Virus genome (UHGV): UHGV-0134179
Source of the DNA: a virus
Reading direction: 5' to 3' (one strand)
Length of the DNA stretch: 24,963 nt
This document shows, piece by piece, positions 1 through 17,741 of the stretch. How positions within the stretch are numbered: position 1 is the stretch's first letter; each line of letters begins with the position of its first letter. Made by a program: the position numbers and the translations under genes. Under the pieces are notes generated by a model that made no database searches, was not told the DNA's origin, and worked only from the letters and a program-made list of their open reading frames with translations.

Positions 1-2
1 TG

Positions 3-203
3 GTTGGGGCTGAAAAAGAGCGGCGCCGCACAAAGGCTGAGGACGTTATCGTCCCGTTAGCGCGTGCTGTGAAATACGGAATGGCTACCTTGGATGAAAA
101 AACGCGACTGGAACACTGGGAAAAATACTCCGTTCTGCTCAGTCGTGTTAACCCTGATGATGCCCCAGATATTGAATGGCCTGTGATGCCGGAAGTTCAT
201 TAA
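3..203 (+). CDS. hypothetical protein, C-terminal 66 codons only (5' end lies upstream of the window)
   Basis: Open frame from the window edge to TAA at 201-203, translating [66 protein letters not shown]. The antisense ORF 57-269 in the track reads as low-complexity junk. No family recognised. Confidence 0.3.
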
Positions 204-311
204 GTGATAGCTATGGAATGGCCTCAGAAAAAATGGGTCCTTCCTGAGACTTTTGTAAGGCACGGGCATTGCGCGCCGCAGTGTTTTTGTAGCTACGGGT
301 TTTCAATTTGA

Positions 312-493
312 TTCACACTTGCGCACTTTCACACTTGTCACTTTTTGTTATGGGTTTGTTAATCGTGAGTGGTGGCAAGGGATTGCGGGAAGTTTCGATA
401 ATTTTTGATTCACAGTTTGATTTACACATTCAGTCTAAAAAGTGTGAACCCTTCACACTTTGTGTGCACAGTCGGTGTGCAGGGTTCACACTT
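312..493. repeat. array of TTCACACTT repeats (direct and inverted) upstream of the Nu1-like gene; candidate cosB/pac-type binding sites
   Basis: Exact TTCACACTT at 312-320, 328-336, 452-460 and 485-493; inverted copy AAAGTGTGAA at 439-448 forming a perfect palindrome AAAGTGTGAA-CCC-TTCACACTTT (439-461); degenerate copies at 409-417 and 422-430; TGTGCACA palindrome at 463-470. Confidence 0.6.
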
Positions 494-513
494 CGTCAGC
501 GAGGTAGGTTGTT

Positions 514-1098
514 ATGTTAATGTCAGTAAGCCAGTACGCCGAGCACAGCGGCATGAGTCGCCGGTCATTTTACAACTGGGAAAGTAAGCAGGGATTCCCG
601 GCTCGGGTTGACGGGAAGATTGACCAGGAGGCTTGCGATGCTTACCTGGCCCGTTACCGTGACAGTCATGATCCGCGCGCTCAGAACGCGAAAAGCAAAG
701 CGGTGGTATCCGATGGCCGCATTGTTGCTGGTAGCACTCTGGTAGAGATGAGTGTTGCGGAGATTAAACGCATCATAGCGTCAGGCGTCACCAAGGTGAC
801 CGGGATGGATCCGGACGAGCGAGCCCAGGTTGCTGCAAAGGCCGTAGAGCTGTTTGTAAGCGAAGGCCCCTATAACCCGCCTGTAACGTTCGGCGGTTAC
901 CGGCTGTCGATTGTTGAAACGCCAGATGATGAAATCGGGCAGATCATCGCGGGCGGTGCGTTTGGTCTGTCTGCATATGATGTGATCTACGAGTGCCGGG
1001 ATTACACCCTGACTCTCATGAGTGATGAAACTGAAGAAACAGCCATGCGGAGGGTTATACCTTCGTTGCTGTATGCCCTGGCCGACGATACCAACTAA
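514..1098 (+). CDS. Nu1-like small terminase subunit / winged-HTH DNA-binding protein (194 aa)
   Basis: N-terminus SQYAEHSGMSRRSFYNWESKQGFP follows the recalled lambda Nu1 HTH pattern (KKQLADIFGASIRTIQNWQEQGMP). GAGGTAGG RBS before the ATG. Sits immediately downstream of the repeat array. Product call is recall-based, not computed. Confidence 0.6.
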   Translation: MLMSVSQYAEHSGMSRRSFYNWESKQGFPARVDGKIDQEACDAYLARYRDSHDPRAQNAKSKAVVSDGRIVAGSTLVEMSVAEIKRIIASGVTKVTGMDPDERAQVAAKAVELFVSEGPYNPPVTFGGYRLSIVETPDDEIGQIIAGGAFGLSAYDVIYECRDYTLTLMSDETEETAMRRVIPSLLYALADDTN

Positions 1099-1128
1099 AT
1101 CAAAGTGTGCCAGCGGGCTCCTGTTATT

Positions 1129-1156
1129 CCAGCCCTTCGGGGCTGGCTTTTTATTT
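1129..1156 (+). terminator. rho-independent terminator downstream of the Nu1-like gene
   Basis: 7-bp GC-rich stem CCAGCCC / GGGCTGG with TTCG loop (1129-1146) followed by CTTTTTATTT. Confidence 0.6.
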
Positions 1157-1200
1157 CGTTACTCAGGGTGTAGTCGGTTATCTGTAGGACTGGAGAATGT

Positions 1201-1392
1201 ATGGTGTTAAAACAGAAGAAAATCGAGGCGGTAATTGAAGAGCTGGCCCGCCTGCAGGGGCATGAGTTAAACGCCGCCGATATGCTGGAGTTACGTTGCA
1301 GGGTTGCGGGAACGCTCGCAGCAAAAGAACGGCATCGTCGGCGCATGACTGCCCCAGAATATCATTGGCGGAAGCCAGCACCTCGCCGATAA
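1201..1392 (+). CDS. hypothetical small protein (63 aa), possibly an orphan or gene remnant
   Basis: ORF with GGAGAA RBS 5 nt upstream of ATG; basic C-terminus; no recognisable family; lies at the boundary of the AT-rich insertion. Confidence 0.3.
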   Translation: MVLKQKKIEAVIEELARLQGHELNAADMLELRCRVAGTLAAKERHRRRMTAPEYHWRKPAPRR

Positions 1393-1688
1393 ACTCTTTC
1401 TTCTGGCTGGTGCTGGTGGTCAAATTCCGAGCGATACCGATATTCCTGTATCGTTTTTAACCGCGTCGCTAAAAGATATGCGGTTAACGAAATGACAGTT
1501 AAACTGGCTGAGTTATTGCATATTTACCATCCCGTAAGCACCGTACACTGCATCTATCTACCAAACACATCAAGTATGACGGATTGTGGATTGTTTACTG
1601 GTTGAACAGCATTGTAATGCTCGGATTATCAGCAAAACCCGACTTACAGATTTGATCGAATTTCTGACTTTGCCGCAGCATCTACCAT

Positions 1689-2819
1689 CTATTTTCTTTG
1701 AATTCCTTTTCCCGAGTTTAAATCTGGATTGTTTATCAATAGCTTTCCATCTATAAGTAAAGCATCTATTTCATCTTGCTCCATTACATGAGATAGAATG
1801 TCAAAGCTATTGTATTTGGAGTTAAGTAAATCATCTAGCTTGGCATTTATTCTCTCGAGAAAGTATTTGTGCTGAGTTAATTCATTTTTCAATTTTTCGC
1901 GTTCATAACCATTCAAATTTAAGTTGGTGTCAATCTCATGCTGTTTTTCTTCGGTGAAGTTATTGAAAGCAGTTAGTCGATAATTCATCAGTGCTTCTAG
2001 TTCGCACTTGACTCTAAATATGAAATCTTTATGCCTATTGATATTGCTATCAGAGTAGTTGCCGCTAATTATTATTTCACAAATTCTACCCGCAACTAAT
2101 CGTTCAAAAACTGAGAAAACAGAGTGCATTAGGACTTTAGACTCGAAGAATTTATCAGGGTAATAGCATAAATTATTGCTTTCTATATAATAATTGAACC
2201 CAGTAGAGTAGGCTTCTGGTTCAGATTTTAATAATTGCCTGAACCGTTCTCTTTGTAGTATATATATTTCAAAGCAATCGTCATTGCACCTAACTATTCG
2301 GGATAAATATATATCCCTCATTGAATGGTCAAACGCTAGATCTGGGATACTTCTGAAACTATCTACAATTGTTTCTGAAACCCTTTCAAATCTTGATTGC
2401 TCTTCAATAATTTGATGATTTCTAATGTCAGAACAAAGATTAGATATATAGGATAAGTTATTGTAAATAGAACCATACAGACTTATACCAAGTAAGGCTG
2501 GCATAATCCCATATGTATTATCTATATTTACTTTTTCCAGTCCTGCAGTGTCACTTATTCTTCCTTTCTCAACACAGGCGGTCGTTGACAATCCACGTAA
2601 CTCACCACTGCTAATATTCATTAGGTCTCTGGATGAGTCTTTTTTAAAAACAACTCTGTAAAAAGTATCATTTTCTGATCCAGATGTATGCATTTTAAGA
2701 ATTTGATTGAATACATAATCCAATGGAGAATTAGATATGAAAACTGGGTTGGGAATCAATTTCTCCAACATTGGGTTATTTTTAAATATGACCTGAATAC
2801 TCTTGGGTAAATCTGACAT
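1689..2819 (-). CDS. hypothetical protein (376 aa), cargo gene of unknown function
   Basis: Long ORF in clearly AT-rich DNA, opposite strand to the phage late operon. AAGG RBS upstream. No signal peptide or TM segment seen; no Walker or other catalytic motif recognised. Confidence 0.7.
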   Translation of the reverse strand: MSDLPKSIQVIFKNNPMLEKLIPNPVFISNSPLDYVFNQILKMHTSGSENDTFYRVVFKKDSSRDLMNISSGELRGLSTTACVEKGRISDTAGLEKVNIDNTYGIMPALLGISLYGSIYNNLSYISNLCSDIRNHQIIEEQSRFERVSETIVDSFRSIPDLAFDHSMRDIYLSRIVRCNDDCFEIYILQRERFRQLLKSEPEAYSTGFNYYIESNNLCYYPDKFFESKVLMHSVFSVFERLVAGRICEIIISGNYSDSNINRHKDFIFRVKCELEALMNYRLTAFNNFTEEKQHEIDTNLNLNGYEREKLKNELTQHKYFLERINAKLDDLLNSKYNSFDILSHVMEQDEIDALLIDGKLLINNPDLNSGKGIQRK

Positions 2820-2846
2820 TGTGCTTACCTTTTTGAAGTTACGATG

Positions 2847-3311
2847 TTATATTCTAGGGCCTTCTAGGTGACATTGGTATGATGCTCCTCCATGTTCGTT
2901 AATAAACCAATCAATGGCATGCCCGGAAAGTCTGTCGATTGAAACGTGTGATATCTGATACCATGATTCACCGTCTCTTGATGCCTCTACAATATATTCT
3001 ATTTCTTTATCGTTTATCACCGGTTTTATCACCCGGAATAAAGTATCGTCCCGTCCCTGCGATTCATTATCGACGGACACAATCACCCCTCGGCTAAACC
3101 AGTTTGCTGTTCTACCATTTCCTGCGCACGTATCACCTGAGTCAATTCGCATATCAAAGCAGAGTTTATTATTCAATAGATAAGGTACAGGCCAAATTCC
3201 GGAGTCTGTGTTGCCATTTTTATCCTGAGGATCGCACACTATGAGGGATGTTCCTGATGCCATGAACGGCAGAGTGAACAATAGCGCAAAAGACAAAATT
3301 TTATAGTTCAT
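2847..3311 (-). CDS. secreted Cys-containing protein (154 aa precursor), cargo gene of unknown function
   Basis: Start taken at the internal Met (3311), giving a signal-peptide-like N-terminus MNYKILSFALLFTLPFMASG. GGTGGTGA RBS just upstream. Four Cys in the mature part. The track ORF extends to 3392 but the extension translates the RBS region. Confidence 0.6.
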   Translation of the reverse strand: MNYKILSFALLFTLPFMASGTSLIVCDPQDKNGNTDSGIWPVPYLLNNKLCFDMRIDSGDTCAGNGRTANWFSRGVIVSVDNESQGRDDTLFRVIKPVINDKEIEYIVEASRDGESWYQISHVSIDRLSGHAIDWFINEHGGASYQCHLEGPRI

Positions 3312-3409
3312 AAAATCACCACCCACATCAATAACTCCGCTTTTTCGGAGCAGCACTGTGACCGTGCCGCCTTCATCGCGCCTAAGAGCCACCGCCAGAC
3401 TTAACCTTA

Positions 3410-3437
3410 ATTATGTCCCGATAAACAATTACTGCAA
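3410..3437 (-). promoter_or_regulatory. candidate sigma70 promoter for the reverse-strand cassette
   Basis: On the minus strand: TTGCAG (-35, plus coords 3432-3437), 16-nt spacer, CATAAT (-10, 3410-3415). Pattern match only. Confidence 0.25.
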
Positions 3438-3544
3438 CATCGTATCCCAGACTTAAAGGATATTTTACCTCTTCTCTGCCTCATCCCACCTCCCGAACTA
3501 AGGGACTTCGTTAGGGACTACAAGTCACTTTGATTTCGAATTAA

Positions 3545-3712
3545 GTCATTAAATATCATTATGATAACAACGATGTCTTGAACTGGGAAGAGATACTTGA
3601 TCAACGCCAGCGGGAAATTGAGTCCTGCCTGAAGCGCGGACTTCCATTACCGAGCTGGGCGCAGGCGGATCAGTTCGCCAGCCAGACAATTACCGATCCG
3701 GAGGAAAAGTGA
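3545..3712 (+). pseudogene. 3' remnant of a portal-like gene (about 55 codons, no start codon)
   Basis: Open frame without an ATG ending in TGA at 3710-3712, overlapping the GTG start of the protease (GTGA) as the portal/protease junction does in lambda. Translation ...NDVLNWEEILDQRQREIESCLKRGLPLPSWAQADQFASQTITDPEEK. GC-rich, unlike the adjacent cassette. Portal identity is inferred from position. Confidence 0.4.
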
Positions 3713-4575
3713 ATCTACCTCATCTGGCCCAGCGCCTTTTTAATACACCGCTGGCGCTACACCCGAGCAAAGCTGAAGTCATCATGGCATCCGTTATGGA
3801 CCGGTTTGGTATCAGTAAAATCGAATCCTCTCTTGCCATGGATGATGACTGGTATGGATACGACGATAACCGGGGGCGGGAATCCCGTAGCGACCCGGGT
3901 TATGACAATGTGCTGGGCGTCGCTGTCATCCCGATATGTGGGACCCTGGTGCAGAAGCTGGGTAGCCTGCGCCCATACAGTGGTATGACAGGCTATGACG
4001 GCATTCGTCAGGCCTTCCTGACCGCGATGGAAGACCCCGATATTACGGGGATCTGCCTGGATATTGATTCGCCAGGCGGCGAGGTTGCCGGATGTTTCGA
4101 TCTGGTCGATGTCATTTATGGCGCCCGCGGGAAAAAGCCCATCCATGCCATCCTGACGGAAAGCGCCTATTCCGCCGCCTATGCGATTGCCAGTGCGGCG
4201 GACCGGATTTCTGTTCCCCGAACCGGTGGTGTGGGCTCAGTTGGCGTGATTACTATGCACCTTGACTGGACCCAGCGGATTAAAGATGACGGACTCAAAG
4301 TCACCATCATCACCTACGGTTCCCGTAAGGCTGAGGGGTCACCGCTGAGAGAGCTGTCAGATGAAGCGCTGGAGGCTATTCAGCAGGACATTAACACCAT
4401 GGGCGAATTGTTTGTGAATACCGTCGCCAGAAATCGGGGGATTAGCGCAAAGGTTATCAAAAGTACTCAGGCTGCCTGTTTTATGGCTGCTGATGGTGTG
4501 GAACTTGGACTGGCTGATGAGGTGTGTCCTCCTGATGCTGCGTTCAGAAACTTACTTGAAAAAACAGGAGCCTGA
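3709..4575 (+). CDS. prohead (head maturation) protease, S49 / lambda gpC-like
   Basis: GTG start. Motifs NLPHLA, PYSGMTGYDGI and DIDSPGGEVAG match recalled lambda gpC / SppA-type S49 peptidase signatures. Confidence 0.88.
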   Translation: MNLPHLAQRLFNTPLALHPSKAEVIMASVMDRFGISKIESSLAMDDDWYGYDDNRGRESRSDPGYDNVLGVAVIPICGTLVQKLGSLRPYSGMTGYDGIRQAFLTAMEDPDITGICLDIDSPGGEVAGCFDLVDVIYGARGKKPIHAILTESAYSAAYAIASAADRISVPRTGGVGSVGVITMHLDWTQRIKDDGLKVTIITYGSRKAEGSPLRELSDEALEAIQQDINTMGELFVNTVARNRGISAKVIKSTQAACFMAADGVELGLADEVCPPDAAFRNLLEKTGA

Positions 4576-4576
4576 A

Positions 4577-5167
4577 ATGGCGAAGAAAAAGACATTTAGT
4601 TTTGCTCATCTTATTGGCCGTGGCGCGGCTGCTTCCGAAGAGGAAGAAGACAAAAAGGCCAAAAAAGCGAAAGGCCGTCGCGCGGAAGAGGATGAGCGCG
4701 AAGATGATGCCGAGGACGATGAACGCGAAGATGACGCGGAAGACGACGAGCGTGATGATGACGCTGAAGATGACGGTGACGACCCGGATGCGGCGGAAGA
4801 CGATGAAGATTCCGAAGATGACGGCGACGATGACCGCAAAGAAAGCAAAGCGGTGAAAAATGCCCGCGCCGCCGAGCGTAAACGTTGCGCCCGTATCTTC
4901 GGCAGTAAGCACGCTGCGGCGAATCCGTCACTGGCCGCTTCACTCGCATTCAATACCGGGATGAGCTCTGCCGCCGCTATCGATGTTCTGGCATCCACGG
5001 CGCCAGCCTTGCAACCAAAGGCAACGCGCGGGCGCTCTCTCGATCAGCGCATGCAGGAAAGCCATGATGTCCGTCTGAATCCGGATGGCGGCAAGAAAGA
5101 GAACGGTAAATCGGCACTGGTAAACCAGATGACCGGCCTCTACAACTCCATTAAAGGAGAGAAATAA
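4577..5167 (+). CDS. acidic scaffold-like head protein (196 aa)
   Basis: Start at internal ATG 4577 with AGGAG RBS; the track ORF from 4493 overlaps the protease. Long acidic repeat EDDAEDDER x3. Position between protease and decoration/capsid genes. Confidence 0.6.
   Translation: MAKKKTFSFAHLIGRGAAASEEEEDKKAKKAKGRRAEEDEREDDAEDDEREDDAEDDERDDDAEDDGDDPDAAEDDEDSEDDGDDDRKESKAVKNARAAERKRCARIFGSKHAAANPSLAASLAFNTGMSSAAAIDVLASTAPALQPKATRGRSLDQRMQESHDVRLNPDGGKKENGKSALVNQMTGLYNSIKGEK
4688..4786 (+). repeat. roughly 27-bp tandem coding repeats (acidic EDDAEDDER units) inside the scaffold-like gene
   Basis: Three consecutive GA-rich units encoding EDEREDDAEDD / EREDDAEDD / ERDDDAEDD; creates long spurious antisense ORFs. 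Confidence 0.5.
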
Positions 5168-5574
5168 TGGATCAATTTGGTCAGAATGCCTTTGCACCTG
5201 GCATGAAGAGTTCAGTGTTTGTGCCGGATCAGTTAATTGCCGGTACACTGCAACTGGTCACTGACACCGGCACGATCACCGGCGGTGTGTATAAGCGTGG
5301 CACTGTGCTTGGCATGATCACCGCCAGTGGCAAATATACAGCCAGTGTGAAAACCGCAACGGATGGTAGCGAGACGCCAGCGGCCATTCTGGTTGATGAT
5401 GTTGACGCTTCCACCCATGGCGATCAGTCCGGCGGCCTGTACCTGATGGGCGAGTTCAACCAGAATCATATTATTTTTGACGATTCCTGGACTGCGCCGG
5501 AACTGAAAACAGCACTACGCCCGCTGGCCATTTTCCTGAAAGACAGCGCCCAGGCACCTTTAACCACCTCCTGA
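5167..5574 (+). CDS. head decoration protein (lambda gpD-like)
   Basis: 135 aa; AGGAGA RBS; TAATG overlap with the previous gene; immediately upstream of the major capsid gene. C-terminal GGLYLMGEFNQNHIIFDDSWTAPELKTALRP resembles the recalled lambda gpD C-terminus. Confidence 0.6.
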   Translation: MDQFGQNAFAPGMKSSVFVPDQLIAGTLQLVTDTGTITGGVYKRGTVLGMITASGKYTASVKTATDGSETPAAILVDDVDASTHGDQSGGLYLMGEFNQNHIIFDDSWTAPELKTALRPLAIFLKDSAQAPLTTS

Positions 5575-5672
5575 TTTATCCCTCATTTCTCCTGGCGAAT
5601 GCTTTAACGGGCAGGCGCTGACCTATTTAAAATTTATGCCAGCGTCTAGCTGGCATTATCAAGAGACTGAAT

Positions 5673-6722
5673 ATGGAAAATATTTATGATACCAGTGTGC
5701 TGGTGCAGGTCGTTCCTAACCTGAAAACCAGTCAGAACTGGCTGCTTGATCGCTTCTTCCCGAACGTCGTGACTTATGAGACCGAAGAAGTAGCGATTGA
5801 CGTGGATGTCGGCCTGCGTCGTATGGCGCCATTCGTCTCCCCGCTGGTGGAAGGTAAGCTGGTCGAGTCCCGTAAATACCAGACCAATACGTTCAAACCG
5901 GCGTACATCAAAGACAAGCGGGCGCCGGACCTGCGTAAACCTATCCGCCGCCAGATTGGTGAGCGTATTGGCGGTGAATATACCGCCGCAGAACGCGAAA
6001 TGTTGAACCTGCAGTTTGAGATGACTGATCAGATTGACATGATCAACCGTCGTCTTGAATGGATGGCGGCCAGCGCGCTGGTGTCCGGTACCGTCACGGT
6101 TTCCGGGGAAGGCTATGAAACCAAAGTGGTGGATTTTGGGCGCTCTCCGGATTTGACTATCACTCTGAGTGGTTCAGATAAGTGGCCGTTGACGGTTGCC
6201 GCTGGTGCCACTAATACCCAGCCCTCTGATGATATTGAAATCTGGCAGACGCTTTTCCTGAAAGAATCCGGTTCCGTCGCGACAGATCTGGTGTTCACAA
6301 GCAAGTCATGGCGTGCTTTCCGACTGGACACCACCATCAAAGATAACGCCATCACGTTCCCGGCGCTGAGCCCGTTTGGTAACCAGATTAATGCTGGTCC
6401 ACAGGCGATGAAGGGCGCTATTTATAAAGGTCGCTGGGGTAACTTTGACCTCTGGTTATATAACGACTGGTTTATTGACCCACTTGATAATGTCGAGAAG
6501 CCGATGATCCCCGACGGCGCCGTTATTATGTCTGGCGCTGATCTGATGGGGACCCGCGCTTTTGGCGTTATCCTGGACCCGGCATTTAACTACGGTCCCC
6601 TGGCCTATGCGCCAAAATCCTGGGTGAAAGAAGATCCGGCCCAGCGTCTTATCCTGATGCAATCCTCCCCGCTGGTTATTCCGAGCCGGGTAAACGCATC
6701 CCTCTGCGCGACGGTGGTCTGA
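5673..6722 (+). CDS. major capsid protein (lambda gpE-like)
   Basis: 349 aa; C-terminus PKSWVKEDPAQRLILMQSSPLVIP parallels recalled lambda gpE YPKNWVTTGDPAREFTMIQSAPLMLL; N-terminal RFFP...MAPFVSPLVEG parallels gpE LFFRE...MALYVSPIVSG. Confidence 0.88.
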   Translation: MENIYDTSVLVQVVPNLKTSQNWLLDRFFPNVVTYETEEVAIDVDVGLRRMAPFVSPLVEGKLVESRKYQTNTFKPAYIKDKRAPDLRKPIRRQIGERIGGEYTAAEREMLNLQFEMTDQIDMINRRLEWMAASALVSGTVTVSGEGYETKVVDFGRSPDLTITLSGSDKWPLTVAAGATNTQPSDDIEIWQTLFLKESGSVATDLVFTSKSWRAFRLDTTIKDNAITFPALSPFGNQINAGPQAMKGAIYKGRWGNFDLWLYNDWFIDPLDNVEKPMIPDGAVIMSGADLMGTRAFGVILDPAFNYGPLAYAPKSWVKEDPAQRLILMQSSPLVIPSRVNASLCATVV

Positions 6723-6723
6723 T

Positions 6724-7101
6724 ATGGCAAAAATCTCTAAAACCGAGCAGGTCGATGATCTGAATGCGGAAGGCGCCACCGAAGACGCCCTGAATATCGA
6801 CGACCTGAATGCCGGCGGCAGCGTTCAGATGACGCATCAGTATGACGAAAAAGACGGCGATTCATCTGATGATCAGGATGACGATGAAGAAGATTTTCAG
6901 GAAGTAGCGGAACCTGAGTTTGTGGTCCTGAAAGGGAACTGCATTCGCCATGACGGTGAGGTTTACCGGGAAAACTCCCTTATTCCGGTCTCCGGTAAGG
7001 ATGCCGAGCGTCTGCTGGCCGCAGGTGTAATTGCCGATGTCCATGCTCTGCGACAGCGCGCGTTATCTGCTGCGCGTGGTGTGAAAATAACAACGGAGTG
7101 A
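6724..7101 (+). CDS. hypothetical head-associated protein (125 aa, acidic N-terminus)
   Basis: Tightly packed after the capsid gene (2-nt gap), matching the position of lambda FI; no sequence signature recognised. Confidence 0.5.
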   Translation: MAKISKTEQVDDLNAEGATEDALNIDDLNAGGSVQMTHQYDEKDGDSSDDQDDDEEDFQEVAEPEFVVLKGNCIRHDGEVYRENSLIPVSGKDAERLLAAGVIADVHALRQRALSAARGVKITTE

Positions 7102-7105
7102 GCAT

Positions 7106-7465
7106 ATGGGCGTGGACTGGGATTTACATCTTCTGAGTCCGCTCCATGGCGTGTTTGGCGATGAGCATGAGTACCGTCCCCGCAACGGTACTCCTTTTAC
7201 GATTAACGGTATTTTTGACCGTGGCTATGCGCAGGTTGCAGAAAATCTTGATGGTGATTCAGAAATTAACACCTCCAGCCCAATGCTTGGGGTGCGCGAT
7301 GCTGAATTTCGTCAGTTGGGTAAACCGCAACCTGCCGTATCTGACCGTGTGTTTATCAAAACGGTCGGAGGTCAGATCATCAATCAGTTATTTGTTGTGT
7401 CCAACGTCGAACCGGACAGCCATGGCGGCTCACGTCTTGTTCTCAATGTGGCGAAAACCCGATGA
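7106..7465 (+). CDS. head-tail joining protein (lambda FII-like / Mu gp36-like)
   Basis: 119 aa; GIFDRGYAQVAE...SSPMLGVRDAEFRQL...DRVFI...HGGSRLVL parallels recalled lambda FII GVFDDPENISYAGQGVRVEGSSPSLFVRTDEVRQL...GGSCHLWL. Confidence 0.6.
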   Translation: MGVDWDLHLLSPLHGVFGDEHEYRPRNGTPFTINGIFDRGYAQVAENLDGDSEINTSSPMLGVRDAEFRQLGKPQPAVSDRVFIKTVGGQIINQLFVVSNVEPDSHGGSRLVLNVAKTR

Positions 7466-8007
7466 ATGCTTCCGCAATACGACACATGGTCGTGGCCGCG
7501 CTGAAAGATAAAACGGCTGCCGCCGATCGTGTTTATTCCCCGCGTGACTGGGCAACTTCGCCGGACCTGTACCCAGCGTTGCTTGTTCAGACGCCATTTG
7601 ATCACAAAAAGGCGCAGGGGCGAAATGTCCCGGCCTTTACCTCTTTGACCACCGTTCGCATTACTGGCCGGGTTCAGGAGTACGACAGTGAAACCACTGA
7701 TGATGGCGCCATGCGCGCGGAGGTTGCGCTGGAAGAGCTCCGGGAACAGGTAGAAAGGGCGGTGATTAACAGCTACGAGTTAACCCGGAACATCCAGAAA
7801 TATGCGGAGGTCCGCTCGACGATTGATGTTGATGCGGATGGTGAAGCGCATATGGGCCAGCTGCTTATCGAAATTGATATTGAGCACTATCAGGGACCGG
7901 AAGACTTTTATCCGGTCGATACGGTGCCGCTGGCGGGGATCGACATCACCATCGACATGCCGGACGGTACGCCGCAGCCGGGCGTAAAAATAGACCTTCA
8001 GGAGTAA
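7462..8007 (+). CDS. putative neck / tail-completion protein (Mu gp37-like position)
   Basis: 181 aa; 4-nt overlap with the previous gene; position between connector and sheath genes. Confidence 0.5.
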   Translation: MNASAIRHMVVAALKDKTAAADRVYSPRDWATSPDLYPALLVQTPFDHKKAQGRNVPAFTSLTTVRITGRVQEYDSETTDDGAMRAEVALEELREQVERAVINSYELTRNIQKYAEVRSTIDVDADGEAHMGQLLIEIDIEHYQGPEDFYPVDTVPLAGIDITIDMPDGTPQPGVKIDLQE

Positions 8008-8009
8008 TC

Positions 8010-8195
8010 ATGTTTGTAAAACCGAAGGACGGGCTCAGCGTTCGCTGCCCTGTCAGGGGGGAGCCTTTGCCTAAAGATGGCGCGGAGGTACCTGATAATA
8101 CGTTCTGGCGTCGCCGCCTGAAGGATGGCGACGTCAGTCTGGTACCGGAAAAGGGCGTTAAAAACGCCGTAAAAAAAGAGGGCGTAATTAAATGA
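8010..8195 (+). CDS. small conserved protein upstream of tail sheath (DUF2635-like)
   Basis: 61 aa; GLSVRCPVRGEPLPKDGAEVPDNTFWRRRLKDGDVSLV matches my recollection of the small protein preceding sheath genes in Mu-like prophages; overlaps the sheath start by 4 nt. Confidence 0.5.
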   Translation: MFVKPKDGLSVRCPVRGEPLPKDGAEVPDNTFWRRRLKDGDVSLVPEKGVKNAVKKEGVIK

Positions 8196-9703
8196 CCGTT
8201 CCATTTTCGCGAGTTCCCGGCAATTTACGTGTGCCGCTTTTTTATGTGGAGTTTGATAACTCCATGGCCAACACGGCGACGGCTACACAACGAACGCTGT
8301 TGATTGGTCAGATGCTGGCATCAGGCTCTACACAGGAAAAAATCCCGGTAAAAGTCTCCTCTCCCAATGCGGTGGGTGAGCTCACCGGAAAAGGATCAAT
8401 GCTGCATGGCATGATGACGGCGTATCAAAAAAACGATACTGCTGCGGAGGTCTGGATCCTTCCGCTGGCTGATGATGCGGATTCGATGGCAGTGGCAACT
8501 GGCAGTATCAAGGTTGCCACACAGGCGGCAGAAACCGGCGTTATCTCTCTTTATATTGCTGGCGTTCGCGTACAACTGACCGTACTGGCGACTGACACTC
8601 CGGCTCAGATTGCCACTGCGCTGGTCGCGGCGATTACCCGCAAAACGGAACTGCCGGTGACAGCTGCTGTAAAAGCCGATGCAACGGATACCGTGACACT
8701 GACGGCCAAAAATGCCGGGTTGCTGGGCAATGGTATTGATATCAGGCTGAATTATCTCGGTGTTCAGGGTGGTGAGGTGACGCCCGCGGGCCTGACACTC
8801 ACCATCACGGGCATGACCGGCGGCGCCGGCGCGCCGGATTTTGTTGATGCCCTTGGCAACCTGCAGGATAAGACCTTTGATTTTGTCATCAACCCTTATT
8901 ATGACACCGCATCACTGGATGCCATCAGAGAATTTCTGAACGATGCAACCGGCCGCTGGGCATGGGATAAACAGCTTTATGGCCACGCATTCACCACTAC
9001 CAACGGCACTTACGCCGAGCTTGGCACCAAAGGGGAAACCCGTAATAACCAGCATGAGTCACTGCTTGGCGTGTACCGCTCACCATCACCGCGTTATATC
9101 TGGGCGGCGGCACTGACAGGGGCCGCTGCACCCAGCCTGCGTAATGACCCCGGACGCCCGCTACAAAGTCTGCCTGTTTATGGCGTGCTGGCACCGGACC
9201 TGGCGGATCGCTTTGAACTGACAGAGCGCAATAACCTGCTGTACAGCGGCATCTCCACTTACACCGTGGGTGATGACGGTACGGTGATGATTGAAAACCT
9301 GATTACCACCTACCAGAAAAACAGCTATGGCGACGAAGACGACAGTTACCTGCAGGTGGAAACGCTCTTCAGCCTGATGTTTGTCACACGATATCTCCGC
9401 ACTGCAGTGACCAGTAAATTTGGTCGCATGAAGCTGGCCGCGGATGGCACGCGTTTTGCGCCGGGGGCGGCGATTGTGACGCCAAACATCATCAGAGCCG
9501 ATCAGATCGCGGAATACCAGACGCTGGTCTTTAACGGCTACGCGCAGGACGCTGAGGCCTTCGCCAGAAACATTATCGTGGAGCAGAACAAAACAAACCC
9601 GAACCGCGTCGATGTGTTGTGGCCGGGAACGCTTATGAACCAGTTGCGCATCTTCGCGCTGCTTAACCAGTTCCGCCTGCAGGCTGAATCAACAGGAGCA
9701 TAA
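8192..9703 (+). CDS. contractile tail sheath protein (Mu gpL-like)
   Basis: 503 aa; position and size; followed by tube, chaperone and tape-measure genes in Mu order. Confidence 0.8.
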   Translation: MTVPFSRVPGNLRVPLFYVEFDNSMANTATATQRTLLIGQMLASGSTQEKIPVKVSSPNAVGELTGKGSMLHGMMTAYQKNDTAAEVWILPLADDADSMAVATGSIKVATQAAETGVISLYIAGVRVQLTVLATDTPAQIATALVAAITRKTELPVTAAVKADATDTVTLTAKNAGLLGNGIDIRLNYLGVQGGEVTPAGLTLTITGMTGGAGAPDFVDALGNLQDKTFDFVINPYYDTASLDAIREFLNDATGRWAWDKQLYGHAFTTTNGTYAELGTKGETRNNQHESLLGVYRSPSPRYIWAAALTGAAAPSLRNDPGRPLQSLPVYGVLAPDLADRFELTERNNLLYSGISTYTVGDDGTVMIENLITTYQKNSYGDEDDSYLQVETLFSLMFVTRYLRTAVTSKFGRMKLAADGTRFAPGAAIVTPNIIRADQIAEYQTLVFNGYAQDAEAFARNIIVEQNKTNPNRVDVLWPGTLMNQLRIFALLNQFRLQAESTGA

Positions 9704-9706
9704 AAC

Positions 9707-10078
9707 ATGGCTGGAGATACCACTAATCGCCTGGCAGGTACCGCTTATGTCACCGTAAACGGGGTGACAGTTATGGTGGAGGGCTCATTCAAGTATCAGA
9801 CCTCCACTGTTAACCGTACCACGCTGACAGGCATGGACGGTGTGCATGGCTACAAAGAAAAGCCGGTTGCCCCGTATATTTCTGCCCGTCTTCGCGACAG
9901 CGGCGGTACCAACGTATTGGGTTTTAACAAACAGACGAACGTCAACGTGATCGCCGAACTGGCGAACGGAAAGACTATTATCGGTCGCGCGCTATGGACG
10001 GTGAACGTTCAGGAAGTGGAAAGCGAAGATGCAGTGTTTGATGTTCGCTGGGAAGGCCGGGACGTAACGGAGAACTAA
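9707..10078 (+). CDS. tail tube protein (Mu gpM-like)
   Basis: 123 aa; immediately after the sheath gene. Confidence 0.7.
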   Translation: MAGDTTNRLAGTAYVTVNGVTVMVEGSFKYQTSTVNRTTLTGMDGVHGYKEKPVAPYISARLRDSGGTNVLGFNKQTNVNVIAELANGKTIIGRALWTVNVQEVESEDAVFDVRWEGRDVTEN

Positions 10079-10079
10079 G

Positions 10080-10358
10080 ATGGCAGAACTTGAACGCACC
10101 AAAGTCATTCCCCTCATCAAGCCTCTGGTCGATGAGGCGCAAAAAACACGCTATGAGCAACTGGAGCTGAAGGCGCCGACGCTCAGCCAGGCAGAGCAGT
10201 TCTACGAAAAGCAGGCATCGTCTACTTCACTGGCGGCGATGCGCCTGCTGATCTCGCTGGTCACGGATACGCGGGAAAGTGTGCTTCAGCCGATGGATTT
10301 TATCGACTTCCGAAAATGCGAGGAGTTTTTGCTCGGTTTTTTGACCTGGAAGCCCTGA
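10080..10358 (+). CDS. tail assembly chaperone (short form)
   Basis: 92 aa acidic protein between tube and tape-measure genes; overlapped at its 3' end by a -1 frame ORF running to the tape-measure start. Confidence 0.6.
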   Translation: MAELERTKVIPLIKPLVDEAQKTRYEQLELKAPTLSQAEQFYEKQASSTSLAAMRLLISLVTDTRESVLQPMDFIDFRKCEEFLLGFLTWKP

Positions 10359-10507
10359 CCGCCTGGCAGGAAACGGCGGCTGACGTCACATTTTATTTCC
10401 GCTGGACAGAAGACAGGGCATGGGGCATGACCTATGCCCGTCTGAAGTGGTGGGTATCGCAGGCCTCCCGTATCAATAAACTCAGGAATCCCGAACCCGA
10501 TGAGTAA
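10337..10507 (+). other. putative programmed -1 ribosomal frameshift site and extension giving a long-form chaperone (G/GT-like)
   Basis: Slippery heptamer T_TTT_TTG at 10337-10343 in the zero frame of the chaperone, 15 nt before its stop; the -1 frame stays open to 10507 and overlaps the tape-measure ATG. Confidence 0.45.
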
Positions 10508-12353
10508 TTCTTTCGACTTTGAGCTGGTGGCCAGCGACCAGGCGACGGAAGCCATTGAGCGTATCAATGAGGCTATCCGTGATCTGGAACCAAAGCTGGA
10601 TAAAACCAAAGAGGGACTCCAGTTAGGAGGGCAGGAGACCCTCGATGGACTGAACGGCTTTATTTCCCGCTTCGAAAATCTGTCCAAAAATGCCCGTGAT
10701 AATGTTCAGTACATCGGGGACATGGTACCGCCGCTGAAGATGGTCGGTGAGCTCTCCGGTAAGCTGGCATCGCTGGGGGTGGTTGGAGCGGCGGGATATG
10801 GGCTAAAACAGATTGCCTACGGTTTCCATGAGGCCTCAAGGGAAGCCTATAACCTCGATGTCGCCGCGAAAAATGCGGGTATGCGAGTGGACGATTTTTC
10901 CCGCCTGTCCGGTGCCATGCGGATACTGGGTGCTGATGGCGACAGTGCAAATTCCTCCATCGAGGGGATGGCTAAAAGCCTGAAGGAGGCCGCCAGCGGT
11001 GCCAACAGCCAGGTGCTCGGCGCATTGTCACAGATTGGCGTTCAGATCCAGAAAAACAACGATGGATCCGTTGATACGCTGAGAACGCTGGAGTCGATAG
11101 CACGCGTTTTCCCGAGTCTGCGACCGGACCAGCAGAAATCAGTTTCCGATGCCCTCGGGTTGACGCCGGAAATGCTGGCGCTGATGCGTGAAGGCGTACG
11201 GATGAAAGCATTGCTGGCTAAATCTGATGAACTTGGCCTGACGGTTGATCCGGAACTTAACCGGCAATTGTCCGAGGTTAACGGCTCCATGAATGAGCTG
11301 GGCGCTGCATGGGATGGGCTGAAAAACCGTTCGAAAAACTCTCTGTTTAAGGGATTGCTTTCCGATGGATCGGTGAAAGACGGTCTTGAAGGTGTGACCG
11401 ACTTGTTCACGAATGGCGATTTCACCGGGCTGTCGCATGCGCTGGGGTTTATCAGTAGCAAGGATGCCGGGAAGCTACGCCGCATTCAGGGTGATAAGGC
11501 GCTGTATAACACCCTTTCCCGGCGCGAGCGCGGAGCGGTGGATGCCGGCTTTATGACTGATGCCGTCCGTAAACGCTACGACGCGCAATATGGCGCCGGG
11601 GACAGAGCTGAACAACTCCGAAATGATTTGTCTGTCATCCTGCCAGCAGGTGCAGCAGCTCCACGCAGAGAAGTGAATTACAGCCAGCCATCTAACCAGG
11701 CACTAGGCCTGAGAAATAATAACCCCGGCAATCTCCGGATAGCGCCTAATGCGACCGGGGTGAATCGTGGTTTCGTCACTTATGACAACAGCAGCGACGG
11801 GCTGGCGGCAATGGCCCGGCAACTGATGTTATATGGCGATCGTGGGAATAACACGCTGAACAGCATGATCCACACTTATGCGCCACGCTCGGAAAATGAT
11901 ACGCAGTCCTATATCAATTCAGTATCGGCCGCGACAGGTATTCAACCCCAGCAGCGGGTGGATCTGCATAACCCGGAGGTGCTGAAGTCAGTCATGGCGG
12001 CCATGATTCAGCATGAGAATGGGGCGCAGCCATATTCTGAAGATGAGATACGGGCGGCAATTCAGACGGCTATCAGTGATCCGCGCTGGTCTGGTCTTCG
12101 TGACAGCCGAGTGCTCAGCCAGCAGAGAGAGAACATCCTCGTACCGCAACCGGACAAGTTTAACAGTTCCTCAATCCTGACAGCTTCCGGTAATGGGAGA
12201 GACACTGTCAGTGAAAACCTGACCCGGTCTCTCAAAGAGGCGATGGCCGATCAGAAAATGAAGCTGGAAATCACCCTGGTCAATGATAAGGGGGAGAAGA
12301 AAACCTATAACGTCGAGGATAACGGCAGAATAACAACCGCCATGAATTACTAA
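10500..12353 (+). CDS. tail tape measure protein
   Basis: 617 aa; largest ORF of the tail block; directly downstream of the frameshifted chaperone pair. Confidence 0.75.
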   Translation: MSNSFDFELVASDQATEAIERINEAIRDLEPKLDKTKEGLQLGGQETLDGLNGFISRFENLSKNARDNVQYIGDMVPPLKMVGELSGKLASLGVVGAAGYGLKQIAYGFHEASREAYNLDVAAKNAGMRVDDFSRLSGAMRILGADGDSANSSIEGMAKSLKEAASGANSQVLGALSQIGVQIQKNNDGSVDTLRTLESIARVFPSLRPDQQKSVSDALGLTPEMLALMREGVRMKALLAKSDELGLTVDPELNRQLSEVNGSMNELGAAWDGLKNRSKNSLFKGLLSDGSVKDGLEGVTDLFTNGDFTGLSHALGFISSKDAGKLRRIQGDKALYNTLSRRERGAVDAGFMTDAVRKRYDAQYGAGDRAEQLRNDLSVILPAGAAAPRREVNYSQPSNQALGLRNNNPGNLRIAPNATGVNRGFVTYDNSSDGLAAMARQLMLYGDRGNNTLNSMIHTYAPRSENDTQSYINSVSAATGIQPQQRVDLHNPEVLKSVMAAMIQHENGAQPYSEDEIRAAIQTAISDPRWSGLRDSRVLSQQRENILVPQPDKFNSSSILTASGNGRDTVSENLTRSLKEAMADQKMKLEITLVNDKGEKKTYNVEDNGRITTAMNY

Positions 12354-12361
12354 CCCTATTA

Positions 12362-12384
12362 AACCGCCACCCTGGCGGTTTTTT
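12362..12384 (+). terminator. terminator-like hairpin between the tape-measure and N genes
   Basis: AACCGCCA-CCC-TGGCGGTT stem-loop followed by TTTT, then an AGGAGG RBS and ATG at 12400. Confidence 0.45.
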
Positions 12385-12399
12385 AATTCAGGAGGCCTG

Positions 12400-13800: not shown

Positions 13801-14882
13801 GTACGGATAATGATCAGGATATTGTCTCCCTGACAGTGGGCGGAAAAATCATTGAAGGATGGGACTCTGTGCGGGTGACCCGTGGCATTGAGCGTTTTCC
13901 CTCCGATTTTGACCTGGGACTGATGGATTATTTTCCGGGAAGTGACCAGAAGCAGCTGGTAAAGGAAGGGATGTCTTGTCAGGTAAAGCTTGGTAACGAC
14001 CTGGTCGTGACGGGGTATGTTGATGACTGGTCGCCTGCTATTTCCCGTTCGCGCCATGAAGTCAGAGCCTCAGGCCGCAGTAAGTGCGCAGATCTCGTGG
14101 ATTGCTCTGCTGAATGGCCAAATAACGTCATCAATAACAGTAATGCGCTTGATATAGCCTCCCGCCTCGCATCCCATTACAACATTGGAGTAAGTACAGA
14201 CGTTGATGATCTGGTGAAAGTCCCGCAATTTTCCCTGAACTGGGGGGAATCGCCACAGGAAATACTTGATCGTGTCTCCCGCTGGTCGGCATTGCTTTAT
14301 TACGATCAGCCTGACGGTAACTTATTTCTGACCCGGGTGGGGACAAAGCGCGCGGCCAGCGGTATCGCAGAAGGGGTAAATATCGAACAGGCTTATTACC
14401 GCCGTTCGATGGCTGACCGCTTTTCTGATTACGTCGGCGTATCGATGAGCATTTCGCCGATTGCAGGATTCTCGCCTGATACGGCTTATGATTCGGTGAC
14501 GCTGGCGACGGCCCGCGATCCTGAGGCGGCCAGTATGCGTTACCGAAAACGGATCATTATTGTTGAAAGTACACTGATGGCTTCACAACAGGCTCAGCGA
14601 GCGATTGACTGGGAGATGAACCGCCGATACGGCCGTTCCCGTCAGTTAACGGTGACGATTGATTCCTGGCGCGATAAATCCGGGAAATTATGGGAGCCGA
14701 ATACGCTTATCCCGGTCAACATCCCGAGTCTGCAGCTGCCTGACACCGAAATGCTTATCGCAGAGGTGACTTATATCAGAAACAGTGACGGCACCCATGC
14801 GCGCCTTTATCTGATGCCCCCGGCGGCTTTCGCTGTCCAGCCTTATGCTTTTTACCAGCAAATACCCGGACTAAACCAATGA
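13797..14882 (+). CDS. tail/baseplate protein (Mu gpP / P2 gpD-like)
   Basis: 361 aa; 4-nt overlap with N; position before the spike gene. Confidence 0.7.
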   Translation: MSTDNDQDIVSLTVGGKIIEGWDSVRVTRGIERFPSDFDLGLMDYFPGSDQKQLVKEGMSCQVKLGNDLVVTGYVDDWSPAISRSRHEVRASGRSKCADLVDCSAEWPNNVINNSNALDIASRLASHYNIGVSTDVDDLVKVPQFSLNWGESPQEILDRVSRWSALLYYDQPDGNLFLTRVGTKRAASGIAEGVNIEQAYYRRSMADRFSDYVGVSMSISPIAGFSPDTAYDSVTLATARDPEAASMRYRKRIIIVESTLMASQQAQRAIDWEMNRRYGRSRQLTVTIDSWRDKSGKLWEPNTLIPVNIPSLQLPDTEMLIAEVTYIRNSDGTHARLYLMPPAAFAVQPYAFYQQIPGLNQ

Positions 14883-17715: not shown

Positions 17716-17741
17716 TTCAGACATTTAAAAAGAAGGTTTAT

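What the first reader, a model, noticed from the sequence alone, without database searches (positions are those of the whole stretch)
1099..3712. Packaging module appears gutted: large terminase and portal replaced by an AT-rich reverse-strand cassette
The head module is lambda-type and co-linear with lambda (cos, Nu1, A, W, B, C, Nu3, D, E, FII). Here a Nu1-like gene (514-1098) is followed directly by an intrinsic terminator, an orphan 63-codon ORF and about 2.4 kb of AT-rich DNA on the opposite strand. There is then a GC-rich open frame with no start codon (3545-3712) whose TGA overlaps the GTG start of the C-type protease, as the portal gene does in lambda. No ORF anywhere in the window could encode a large terminase (about 600+ aa) or a full portal (about 500 aa). 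This suggests a deletion or replacement that should make the prophage unable to package DNA, while the rest of the virion module stays intact. The element could be a cryptic prophage kept for its cargo or tail, or a recent cargo acquisition.
Basis: partly seen in the sequence, partly recalled or inferred. Interest (0 to 1): 0.7.

Follow-up and report, generated by a model that had tools for sequence, protein, structure and literature searches.

The report
Phage satellite inserted in portal gene
The apparent hole in this prophage's packaging module is most likely the right-hand end of a phage satellite (a PICI) that has inserted site-specifically into the 3' end of the helper prophage's portal gene, a published arrangement (helper-embedded PICI) seen here at an insertion site not in the published list.

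Summary
A 194-aa Nu1-like gene, a terminator and a 63-codon ORF are followed by 2.2 kb of AT-rich reverse-strand cargo. Then come 42 codons of portal 3' end overlapping the S49 protease start. The window has no large terminase and no full portal.

The "gutted prophage" reading is not the best one. Window 1-3581 is not the prophage's DNA. It is the late zone, cargo hotspot and attachment arm of a PICI-type satellite. Free relatives are 16-17 kb islands (integrase, AlpA, primase, cos, this same gene) at hpt or dinD.

The portal breakpoint is identical to the base in six other contigs. Relatedness switches exactly there: near-identical satellites are joined to phage lineages about 20% diverged. 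The portal fragment evolved under purifying selection (pN/pS 0.08-0.18). A doubled 12-bp-period motif lies about 80 bp upstream of the junction. These point to repeated site-specific integration, as in the helper-embedded PICIs of Tommasini et al. 2023.

The site, portal codon ~501, is not among their listed sites.

The left junction (portal 5' end plus satellite integrase) could not be reached. Whether terminase and the rest of portal lie upstream of the window is inferred, not shown.

The parts
1..203 (+). 3' end of a satellite late-zone gene (tail-fibre assembly protein, Caudo_TAP)
   Evidence: The sibling contig L004 carries the full 141-aa Caudo_TAP gene here. It is preceded by Gp53-like_C and by 154/164/258/57/58-aa genes. 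These are 88% identical in DNA to the E. coli VG1046-3E9 island.
234..309 (+). cos block (candidate cosQ/cosN) shared by the satellite and the helper phage family
   Evidence: Identical block in the window, the free island and the intact prophage (alignment A1). Present in 75 of 80 intact helper-family phages at a median 92.8% identity, about 3.07 kb upstream of the portal start, just before TerS and TerL.
312..493 (+). Five exact copies of TTCACACTT (four direct, one inverted): candidate cosB-type binding sites for the satellite's own wHTH protein
   Evidence: All five exact copies in the 25-kb window fall within these 182 bp. At the equivalent position the helper prophage has unrelated GGTAACAG-type repeats.
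514..1098 (+).
   Evidence: PHROG 57 small terminase, E=5e-8, residues 1-61 only. 35-51% identity to helper TerS over the N-terminal ~50-68 aa, with the rest unrelated. 119 homologue clusters, all Enterobacterales. None in 50,697 phage genomes. It sits after cos in free PICI-type islands L006, L012 and L045.
1129..1155 (+). Intrinsic-terminator-like hairpin and T-run
   Evidence: 7-pair stem with 6 GC pairs, followed by CTTTTTATTT.
1201..1392 (+). 63-aa ORF that always follows the wHTH gene in this satellite family (function unknown)
   Evidence: phrog_7271, E=1.4e-22. Present in the free islands and in all composites. Absent from 80 intact helper-family phages. Homology to free islands ends at 1388.
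1689..2819 (-). 376-aa cargo gene of unknown function (AT-rich, horizontally mobile)
   Evidence: 57 homologue clusters scattered over Klebsiella, Vibrio, Proteus, Citrobacter and Paraburkholderia. Also found as cargo of an ICE and of an integrase-bearing island. AlphaFold pLDDT 84, helical bundle, no significant PDB match; the best is JukB 9jht_B at E=0.02.
2847..3311 (-). 154-aa cargo gene with an N-terminal signal-peptide-like segment (the ORF extends to 3392 from an upstream GTG)
   Evidence: phrog_26680, E=1e-58, over residues 28-181. Called as 154 aa in L007-L011.
3393..3581 (+). Non-coding satellite arm of the attachment junction (attR, P-type arm), with the doubled motif AAGGGACTtcgtTAGGGACT at 3500-3519
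   Evidence: 85% conserved among all composites. The doubled motif has a 12-bp period and starts 82 bp before the junction. It occurs once per composite locus and nowhere in 1.5 Mb of intact helper phages. Published HE-PICI attP sites have a doubled 12-bp-period motif 81+/-2 bp upstream of the centre, with a different sequence (PMC10111431).
3582..3592 (+). Candidate crossover/identity block ACTGGGAAGAG
   Evidence: Homology to the intact portal starts at 3582. The last satellite-allele-specific base is 3572 and the first phage-lineage-specific base is 3593. GACTGGGA(A/G)GA occurs exactly once in each of 80 intact portal genes.
3584..3712 (+). Displaced 3' end of the helper portal gene (codons ~503-544 plus the stop overlapping the S49 start)
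   Evidence: Amino-acid identical to the Ec1117 portal C-terminus. Between composites pN/pS is 0.08-0.18 and pS is 0.42-0.71. Lies outside the Pfam Phage_portal_2 domain, which covers aa 38-417.
3709..20317 (+). Right arm of the helper prophage: S49 protease, scaffold, decoration, major capsid, connectors, sheath, tube, tape-measure-position gene, DNA circularization, baseplate, fibre genes
   Evidence: 98.8% identical over 16.7 kb to the intact 45-kb yecE prophage of E. coli Ec1117, with every ORF at the same length.

Best explanation
Window 1-3581 is the right-hand end of a PICI-type phage satellite that integrated, by its own tyrosine integrase, into codon ~501 of the portal gene of a lambda-head/Mu-tail prophage. 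[quoted passage not shown]

Reading left to right, the window holds:
- the end of the satellite's late zone;
- its cos site, whose nicking region is copied from the helper while its repeats are its own;
- its own winged-HTH protein in the small-terminase position, and the 63-aa ORF that always follows it;
- an accessory cargo hotspot with two AT-rich reverse-strand genes;
- the non-coding attachment arm;
- the crossover block ACTGGGAAGAG;
- the displaced last 42 codons of the helper's portal gene, and then the intact right arm of the helper.

Shown here:
- the satellite identity of the left side;
- the shared cos block;
- the exact recurrence of the junction with different partners;
- purifying selection on the portal fragment.

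Inferred from the published HE-PICI model:
- the satellite's replication genes, AlpA and integrase lie to the left of the window;
- beyond them lie the first ~500 codons of portal, gpW, the large terminase and the helper's own small terminase;
- the portal gene is silent until the satellite excises;
- the satellite's wHTH protein then steers the helper terminase to the satellite cos.
For: 1. The left side is satellite DNA.
- Window 234-1388 is 93% identical to the end of a 17-kb island between gcd and hpt in E. coli VG1046-3E9. That island carries int, HTH, AntA/B, Icd-like, DUF4222, a Toprim-D5 primase, SSB, cos, the 194-aa gene, the 63-aa gene and cargo.
- The same layout, with AlpA, is found in K. 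variicola (L045) and at yicC/dinD in E. coli (L012).
- The islands are flanked by direct repeats.
- The same primase (98-99% identity) serves capsid-forming PICIs.

2. The right side is the right arm of an otherwise complete prophage family.

3. The junction is identical to the base in seven contigs.

4. Relatedness switches at the junction.
- L008 vs L010: 0 differences in 2,002 bp to the left, then 49 in the next 319 bp, the first at +11.
- L007 vs L010: 7 vs 64.
- Window vs L008: 259 to the left, the last at -10, vs 2 to the right.
- Crossovers confined to a window of about 20 bp in three or more independent comparisons fit integrase action and do not fit homologous recombination.

5. The portal fragment shows pN/pS 0.08-0.18, whereas a relic stranded once would drift towards 1.

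6. The doubled 12-bp-period motif about 80 bp upstream of the junction is unique to this arm. It matches the published HE-PICI attP architecture (PMC10111431).

7. Satellite genes and helper late genes run in the same direction, as in all published HE-PICIs.

8. In L008 the phage arm ends at the phage's own attR, followed by a Klebsiella-type yecE fragment. The phage part is therefore a normally integrated prophage arm.

9. The cos block is shared with 75 of 80 intact helper-family phages. Three E. coli genomes with a free satellite of this family also carry a prophage of the helper family.
Against: - The left junction (portal 5' end, crossover block, satellite integrase) was never seen. No contig or locus I could fetch reaches it.
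- The integrase and AlpA of the embedded elements themselves are unseen.
- The arm motif (AGGGACT) differs from the published HE-PICI motif (TGTATTGC), and the site is not in their list. Membership of their integrase clade is doubtful.
- None of 59 E. coli complete genomes with this phage family has an interrupted portal, and the junction 27-mer is absent from the IMG/VR set. The configuration is therefore rare in these collections.
- The most common relative among those read (L008 type, 12 similar places) has lost S49 through gp48. Some of these composites are decaying.
Confidence: 0.68

Rival explanations
1. Abandoned helper-embedded satellite. The junction arose by site-specific integration as above, but in this genome the helper's left arm (integrase to portal 5' end, including the terminase) has since been deleted or truncated. 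The prophage remnant would then truly be unable to package, and the satellite would wait for a new helper.
For: Tommasini et al. note that many HE-PICI helpers look truncated in the chromosome. The L008-type relatives have an internal deletion from S49 to gp48. The window itself holds no TerL or portal.
Against: In the window, every late gene from S49 to the fibre genes is intact and 98.8% identical to a complete prophage, with low dN/dS. There is no sign of decay. Nothing is known about the left side either way.
Confidence: 0.17
2. A single illegitimate deletion or replacement removed TerL, gpW and most of portal from one prophage and put a cargo cassette in their place. The arrangement then spread by descent and homologous recombination.
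For: The window has a stranded portal 3' end, lacks TerL, and has a foreign AT-rich insert.
Against: The gene to the left is not the phage's TerS, and at least 12 kb to the left is satellite DNA. Phage arms with synonymous divergence above 1 share the same breakpoint, while the adjacent non-coding arm is 85% identical. Relatedness switches within about 20 bp of the junction in several independent pairs. The fragment is under purifying selection.
Confidence: 0.06
3. Elongated PICI. The satellite has captured the helper's late genes from the portal 3' end to the tail fibres, and the whole ~36-kb unit moves as one large satellite that needs only TerL, gpW and portal from a helper.
For: PICIs with up to 17 captured helper late genes exist, and capture is proposed to start from HE-PICI sites. 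At ~36 kb the unit would be about 79% of the 45-kb helper genome, which is near the lower limit for cos packaging as I recall it from lambda.
Against: In L008 the phage arm ends at the phage's own attR in the chromosomal yecE site, not at a satellite att site. Identical satellites sit next to different phage lineages, which fits a satellite moving without the arm.
Confidence: 0.06
4. Assembly chimera joining a satellite contig and a prophage contig.
For: The window is a short-read metagenome contig at 9.4x coverage.
Against: The same junction appears in an independent Logan assembly, in NCBI isolate genomes with contigs over 1 Mb, and in further ENA and JGI-scan contigs.
Confidence: 0.01

Closest known systems
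Helper-embedded PICIs (HE-PICIs; Tommasini, Mageeney & Williams 2023, NAR Genom Bioinform, PMC10111431), e.g. Eco567.11capE in the capsid gene and the B:Phage_portal_2:38/227/241 groups in portal genes
   Same: - A PICI lies inside a lambda-type late gene of a prophage.
- It has the same orientation as the late genes.
- The junction is precise and recurrent.
- A doubled 12-bp-period motif lies about 80 bp upstream of the crossover.
- A stretch of roughly 260-280 bp around cos is shared with the helper.
- The late zone contains helper-derived genes.
- Some helpers are truncated.
   Different: - The site is at portal codon ~501 of 544, outside the Pfam portal domain and not among the 14 (+1) listed sites.
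- The arm motif is AGGGACT, not TGTATTGC.
- The satellite carries a 194-aa wHTH gene plus its own repeat array after cos, whereas 11capE is described as lacking terS.
- The elements are larger (about 17-20 kb versus about 11 kb).
- The integrase and attL are unseen here.
cos-type Gram-negative PICIs with Rpp (EcCICFT073 and relatives; Fillol-Salom et al. 2019, PMC6739421; Murialdo & Feiss 2022, PMC9026076)
   Same: - The cosQ/cosN region is nearly identical to the helper's and is followed by unrelated sequence.
- A satellite gene for a winged-HTH protein sits where terS would be.
- The gene order is int, AlpA, primase, late zone.
   Different: - Rpp proteins are 139-154 aa and their PICI cos sites have no repeated R sequences. 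Here the protein is 194 aa, the length of the helper TerS, and is preceded by five exact 9-bp repeats.
- There is no detectable sequence similarity to any PDB chain, which I would expect to include RppC and lambda Nu1 structures if they are in that copy.
- Binding to helper TerS or TerL is untested.
hpt and fis PICIs and capsid-forming PICIs of Enterobacteriaceae
   Same: Free relatives of the window's satellite sit at the gcd/hpt site with a 19-bp direct repeat. They share a 98-99% identical primase with cf-PICIs at fis and hpt.
   Different: The window's element abuts a portal gene fragment instead of hpt or fis. It has no capsid, portal or TerL genes of its own in the part seen.
Cryptic prophages crippled by deletion
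   Same: Essential packaging genes are missing from the stretch examined.
   Different: The breakpoint is recurrent and site-specific. The flanking DNA is a satellite, and the remaining late genes show no decay.

Membership tests
Helper-embedded PICI (HE-PICI) | Satellite with PICI gene organisation (integrase/AlpA, Bro zone, primase/SSB, late zone) | tested here: inconclusive
   The embedded relatives L008 and L010 show DUF4222, primase, SSB, cargo, late zone, cos and the wHTH gene. The integrase and AlpA of embedded copies lie beyond the reachable DNA. Free relatives L006, L012 and L045 have the full order, including int and AlpA.
Helper-embedded PICI (HE-PICI) | Right junction (attR) inside a prophage late gene, precise and shared by independent instances | tested here: met
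   Identical breakpoint in portal codon ~501 in seven contigs. Relatedness switches within 3572-3593.
Helper-embedded PICI (HE-PICI) | Left junction (attL): 5' part of the same late gene next to the satellite integrase, with an identity block shared with attR | not testable with these tools
   No fetched locus reaches it. The pattern and portal scans found none.
Helper-embedded PICI (HE-PICI) | Same transcriptional orientation as the interrupted late gene | tested here: met
   The primase, the wHTH gene and S49 are all on one strand in the window and in L007-L011.
Helper-embedded PICI (HE-PICI) | Doubled arm motif tgTGTATTGCantgTGTATTGCa 81+/-2 bp upstream (and 132 bp downstream) of the attP centre | tested here: not met
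   A doubled motif with the same 12-bp period lies at the same distance (3500-3519, 82 bp before 3582), but its sequence is AAGGGACTtcgtTAGGGACT. The architecture is shared and the sequence is not. The downstream copy cannot be tested.
Helper-embedded PICI (HE-PICI) | Integrase belonging to the 11capE clade | not testable with these tools
   The integrase of the embedded element was not seen.
Helper-embedded PICI (HE-PICI) | Excision restores the late gene (attB) and yields a circular attP | not testable with these tools
   Needs induction with junction PCR or deep sequencing. Purifying selection on the displaced fragment is indirect support only.
Lambda Nu1-type small terminase of the resident phage | Encoded next to and co-evolving with a gpA-type TerL; C-terminal TerL-binding region; present in phages of the family | tested here: not met
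   There is no TerL downstream. It is absent from 50,697 phage genomes and from 80 intact helper-family phages, except for 35-51% identity over the N-terminal DNA-binding part.
Rpp (redirecting phage packaging) proteins of cos PICIs | PICI-encoded wHTH protein after a helper-like cosN that binds helper TerS and retargets terminase | tested here: inconclusive
   The position and N-terminal wHTH are met. The size (194 aa versus 139-154 aa) and the repeat array differ. No sequence match to solved structures. The interaction is not testable here.
Prophage crippled by a single deletion | A unique breakpoint inherited by descent, with flanks that co-diverge on both sides | tested here: not met
   The flanks do not co-diverge: 0 vs 49, 7 vs 64 and 259 vs 2 differences on the two sides of the junction.

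The most novel reading that the evidence does not exclude
This may be a separate lineage of helper-embedded satellites. It would use an integrase with a different arm motif to target the extreme 3' end of the portal gene of lambda-head/Mu-tail phages of Escherichia and Klebsiella. It would carry its own small-terminase-like specificity factor with a five-repeat cosB, helper-derived tail-fibre and tape-measure-like genes, and a defence-like cargo hotspot right next to attR. If the integrase falls outside the published HE-PICI clade, embedding in helper late genes would have evolved more than once.
Probability: 0.4. Interest if true: 0.55.

Novelty: new member of a known kind. Interest (0 to 1): 0.38.

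Why it matters
- **Annotation.** A prophage that seems to lack terminase and portal in a short contig may simply be interrupted by a satellite. Calling it cryptic from such a contig would be wrong.
- **Biology.** The case adds a further portal target site and a different arm motif to the helper-embedded PICI phenomenon. It shows near-identical satellites hopping between phage lineages about 20% diverged in Klebsiella and Escherichia.
- **Packaging.** It pairs helper embedding with a TerS-like packaging-specificity module. The published HE-PICI model element is described as lacking terS.
- **Cargo.** The cargo slot next to attR carries an uncharacterised 376-aa gene family that also travels on ICEs. 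It is a reasonable candidate for an anti-phage function.

Tried and rejected
- **376-aa or 181-aa protein as a divergent terminase or portal.** Rejected. No Pfam, PHROG, PADLOC or NCBIfam hit. The AlphaFold model is a helical bundle with no significant PDB match.
- **63-aa ORF as a TerL N-terminal relic.** No similarity to the helper TerL or to any six-frame translation of the helper prophage.
- **Fold of the 194-aa protein.** The model has pLDDT 72. Only weak MerR/excisionase-type wHTH matches were found, and there was no PDB sequence hit.
- **Reaching the left junction.** All of these failed:
  - GTDB scan with the primase: 28 free satellites, no composite.
  - Look-ups of near-identical primases: these returned cf-PICIs and a free hpt PICI. 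No exact primase match was available.
  - IMG/VR scan for the junction 27-mer: 0 hits.
  - IMG/VR scan for a predicted attL/attP pattern: four chance hits.
  - Metagenome scan for the arm 22-mer: two more attR-side contigs only.
  - IMG/VR portal query: only full-length portals among the best 80.
- **E. coli complete genomes.** No copy of the cassette or arm, and no interrupted portal in this phage family.
- **Similarity of the attR arm to the right ends of free satellites.** None found.
- **First dN/dS run on the portal fragment.** It used the wrong frame and was replaced.
Full report
**Observation**

- The 194-aa ORF (514-1098) is followed by a strong terminator-like hairpin (1129-1155) and a 63-aa ORF (1201-1392).
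- Two reverse-strand ORFs of 376 and 181/154 aa follow, in DNA of 37.5% GC flanked by 51-52% GC.
- A start-less open frame ends in a TGA that overlaps the GTG of an S49 protease.
- tblastn with the TerL and portal of an intact relative finds only the last 41-42 portal codons in the window.
- The window is an entire metagenome contig. An independent Logan assembly has the same arrangement at 99.2% identity, so it is not a chimera.

**The right side is a normal prophage arm**

- Window 3582-20317 is 98.8% identical to a complete 45-kb prophage in the yecE site of E. coli Ec1117.
- That prophage has, in order: cos, a 193-aa TerS-like gene, gpA-type TerL, gpW, a lambda-family portal, S49, scaffold, decoration, major capsid, connectors and a Mu-like contractile tail.
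- All late ORFs in the window keep the lengths of that relative.
- At least 321 relatives of its portal exist in the IMG/VR set. The 80 best all have a full-length portal.

**The left side is not that phage**

- Homology to the intact prophage stops at 3582. It reappears only in a 76-bp block at 234-309.
- Window 234-1388 is instead 93% identical to the end of a 17-kb island between gcd and hpt in E. coli VG1046-3E9. The 4.3 kb that the sibling contig adds to the left is 88% identical to the same island.
- That island and its relatives at yicC/dinD in E. coli and at gcd/hpt in K. variicola share one gene order: integrase, (AlpA), antirepressor-type genes, DUF4222, Toprim/D5 primase, SSB, variable cargo, a few late-zone genes, cos, the 194/195-aa gene, the 62/63-aa gene, variable cargo, then the end of the island. 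They are flanked by direct repeats.
- This is the Gram-negative PICI layout. The same primase at 98-99% identity serves capsid-forming PICIs.
- The 194-aa protein family has 119 clusters, all in Enterobacterales. It is absent from 50,697 phage genomes.
- Only its N-terminal ~65 residues resemble the TerS of helper-family phages, at 35-51% identity.
- The 76-bp block is in 75 of 80 intact helper-family phages, just upstream of TerS. After it the phage has GGTAACAG-type repeats, while the satellite has five exact TTCACACTT copies. These are the only exact copies in the window.
- This matches the cos/Rpp logic described for E. coli PICIs: a shared nicking site and a private recognition module.

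**The junction**

- The 376-aa gene led to Klebsiella genomes and metagenome contigs with the same composite: satellite, cassette, portal fragment, S49 and the rest of the late genes.
- They align with the window over about 10 kb at only 77-81% identity. Yet the breakpoint is the same base in all of them.
- Fine mapping shows that relatedness changes at the junction:

| Pair | Differences left of junction (2,002 bp) | Differences right of junction (319 bp) | Position of nearest difference |
|---|---|---|---|
| L008 vs L010 | 0 | 49 | first at +11 |
| L007 vs L010 | 7 | 64 | first at +19 |
| Window vs L008 | 259 | 2 | last on the left at -10 |

- The left boundary of the cassette, by contrast, is a gradual recombination zone inside the 62-aa gene.
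- Late genes differ between composites with dS above 1 and dN/dS of 0.02-0.2, while the non-coding arm next to the junction is 85% identical.
- The 42-codon portal fragment shows pS 0.42-0.71 and pN/pS 0.08-0.18. In the window it is amino-acid identical to an intact portal.
- A single ancient deletion predicts co-divergence of both flanks and neutral drift of the fragment. Neither is seen.
- Repeated integrase-mediated insertion of a mobile satellite into functional portal genes predicts exactly what is seen.
- The target GACTGGGA(A/G)GA occurs once in each of 80 intact portals.
- The arm carries a doubled motif, AAGGGACTtcgtTAGGGACT, starting 82 bp before the junction. It is found nowhere else in any fetched locus.

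**Known biology**

- Tommasini, Mageeney and Williams (2023, PMC10111431) described helper-embedded PICIs. They mapped 491 PICIs inside lambda-type late genes at 14 sites, including three in portal genes.
- These PICIs are oriented like the late genes. They have a doubled 12-bp-period motif 81+/-2 bp upstream of the attP centre and share about 258 bp around cos with the helper.
- For one element the authors showed experimentally that the composite excises first and the satellite excises afterwards. They also note truncated helpers and PICIs that captured long runs of late genes.
- The window fits this configuration in every feature that could be tested except the motif sequence.
- Its site lies outside the Pfam portal domain. 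It is not among their sites, and its core sequence is not in the supplementary text held.

**What remains open**

- I could not see the left junction, so the presence of the portal 5' end, gpW and TerL upstream of the satellite in this genome is inferred.
- In the L008 relatives the phage arm ends at the phage's own attR, followed by a Klebsiella-type yecE fragment. This argues that the phage part is a normally integrated prophage arm rather than satellite-captured DNA.
- The same relatives have an internal deletion from S49 to gp48. Decay of helpers around embedded satellites does therefore occur.
- My estimates are:
  - about 0.68 for an embedded satellite with the helper's left arm present;
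  - about 0.17 for the same origin with the left arm lost;
  - small probabilities for a one-off deletion, for late-gene capture and for an assembly artefact.

**Cargo**

- The 376-aa protein belongs to a small, patchily distributed family. It also rides on an ICE and on another integrase island.
- It has no family assignment. It folds confidently into a helical bundle with no solved relative. The best match, JukB, is weak.
- Its neighbour is a small protein with a signal-peptide-like N-terminus, known only as phrog_26680.
- Their position in the variable slot next to attR suggests an accessory role, possibly anti-phage. This is conjecture.

**Verdict**

The "gutted packaging module" is best explained by a known phenomenon, a helper-embedded PICI. 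The window holds a new member of that kind, with an unlisted portal site and a different arm motif.

Noticed in passing
window 23396-24963 (ORFs 23445-23786 and 23918-24658, both on the - strand): A second AT-rich (GC 0.356) reverse-strand cargo block lies at the far end of the prophage arm, after the tail-fibre genes. The 246-aa protein has a weak HEPN-type match (PADLOC Csx1/Csm6, E=0.0025) and an RNDVIH (Rx4H) motif.
   Followed up: partly
window 18506-19597 (- strand) and 19887-23395: An Acyl_transf_3 acyltransferase sits on the opposite strand among the fibre genes. Homology to the Ec1117 prophage ends at 20317, inside a 696-aa beta-helix tail-spike gene. A 472-aa gene with no family follows. 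This looks like a swapped receptor-binding module.
   Followed up: partly
L007 12487-14343, L045 16867-18741, L008/L010 12828-13658; L004 4237-5198: Satellites of this family carry helper-like tail genes just upstream of cos. One is a 618-624-aa protein about 67% identical in DNA to part of the helper's tape-measure-position gene (window 10500-12353). Another is a 276-aa protein whose N-terminus is 59% identical to the helper Gly_rich_2 fibre protein. In the window's own lineage there are Gp53-like_C and Caudo_TAP genes.
   Followed up: partly
L008 (GCA_900775065.1) versus the window: The most frequent relative among the contigs read (12 similar places) has a clean deletion from inside S49 (window 3967) to inside the gp48/YmfQ gene (window 17088). 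The satellite and the fibre genes are kept.
   Followed up: partly
L043, L044, L047-L052: Capsid-forming PICIs at the fis and hpt sites of Klebsiella use a primase 98-99% identical to that of the embedded satellites L008 and L010. The replication module is therefore exchanged between very different satellite types.
   Followed up: no
L007/L009 16833-18913; L008/L010/L045 (Pkinase + PP2C pair): The internal variable slot of these satellites holds a GAPS4-type pair (PDDEXK_GAPS4, GAPS4b_N) in one backbone and a Ser/Thr kinase with a PP2C phosphatase in another.
   Followed up: no
L002 8813-8983; L008/L010/L011 upstream of cos; L005 22121-22399: Satellites keep the last 57 codons of the helper gene that precedes cos (a 212-aa protein, annotated as a P22_AR_N fragment) together with the cos block. 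The shared stretch is about 280 bp at 86% identity.
   Followed up: partly
E. coli NZ_CP104681.1, NZ_CM169492.1, NZ_CM173843.1: Three of the four E. coli complete genomes that carry a free satellite of this family also carry a prophage of the helper family (portal region 83% identical to Ec1117). This fits a helper-satellite pairing.
   Followed up: partly
L057 (OGVK01014146.1), last 20 bases: One metagenome variant of the junction arm reads ...CCCATATCGTGACTGGG instead of ...ACCATGTCTTGAACTGGG. This is a one-base difference immediately next to the crossover block. The contig ends there.
   Followed up: no
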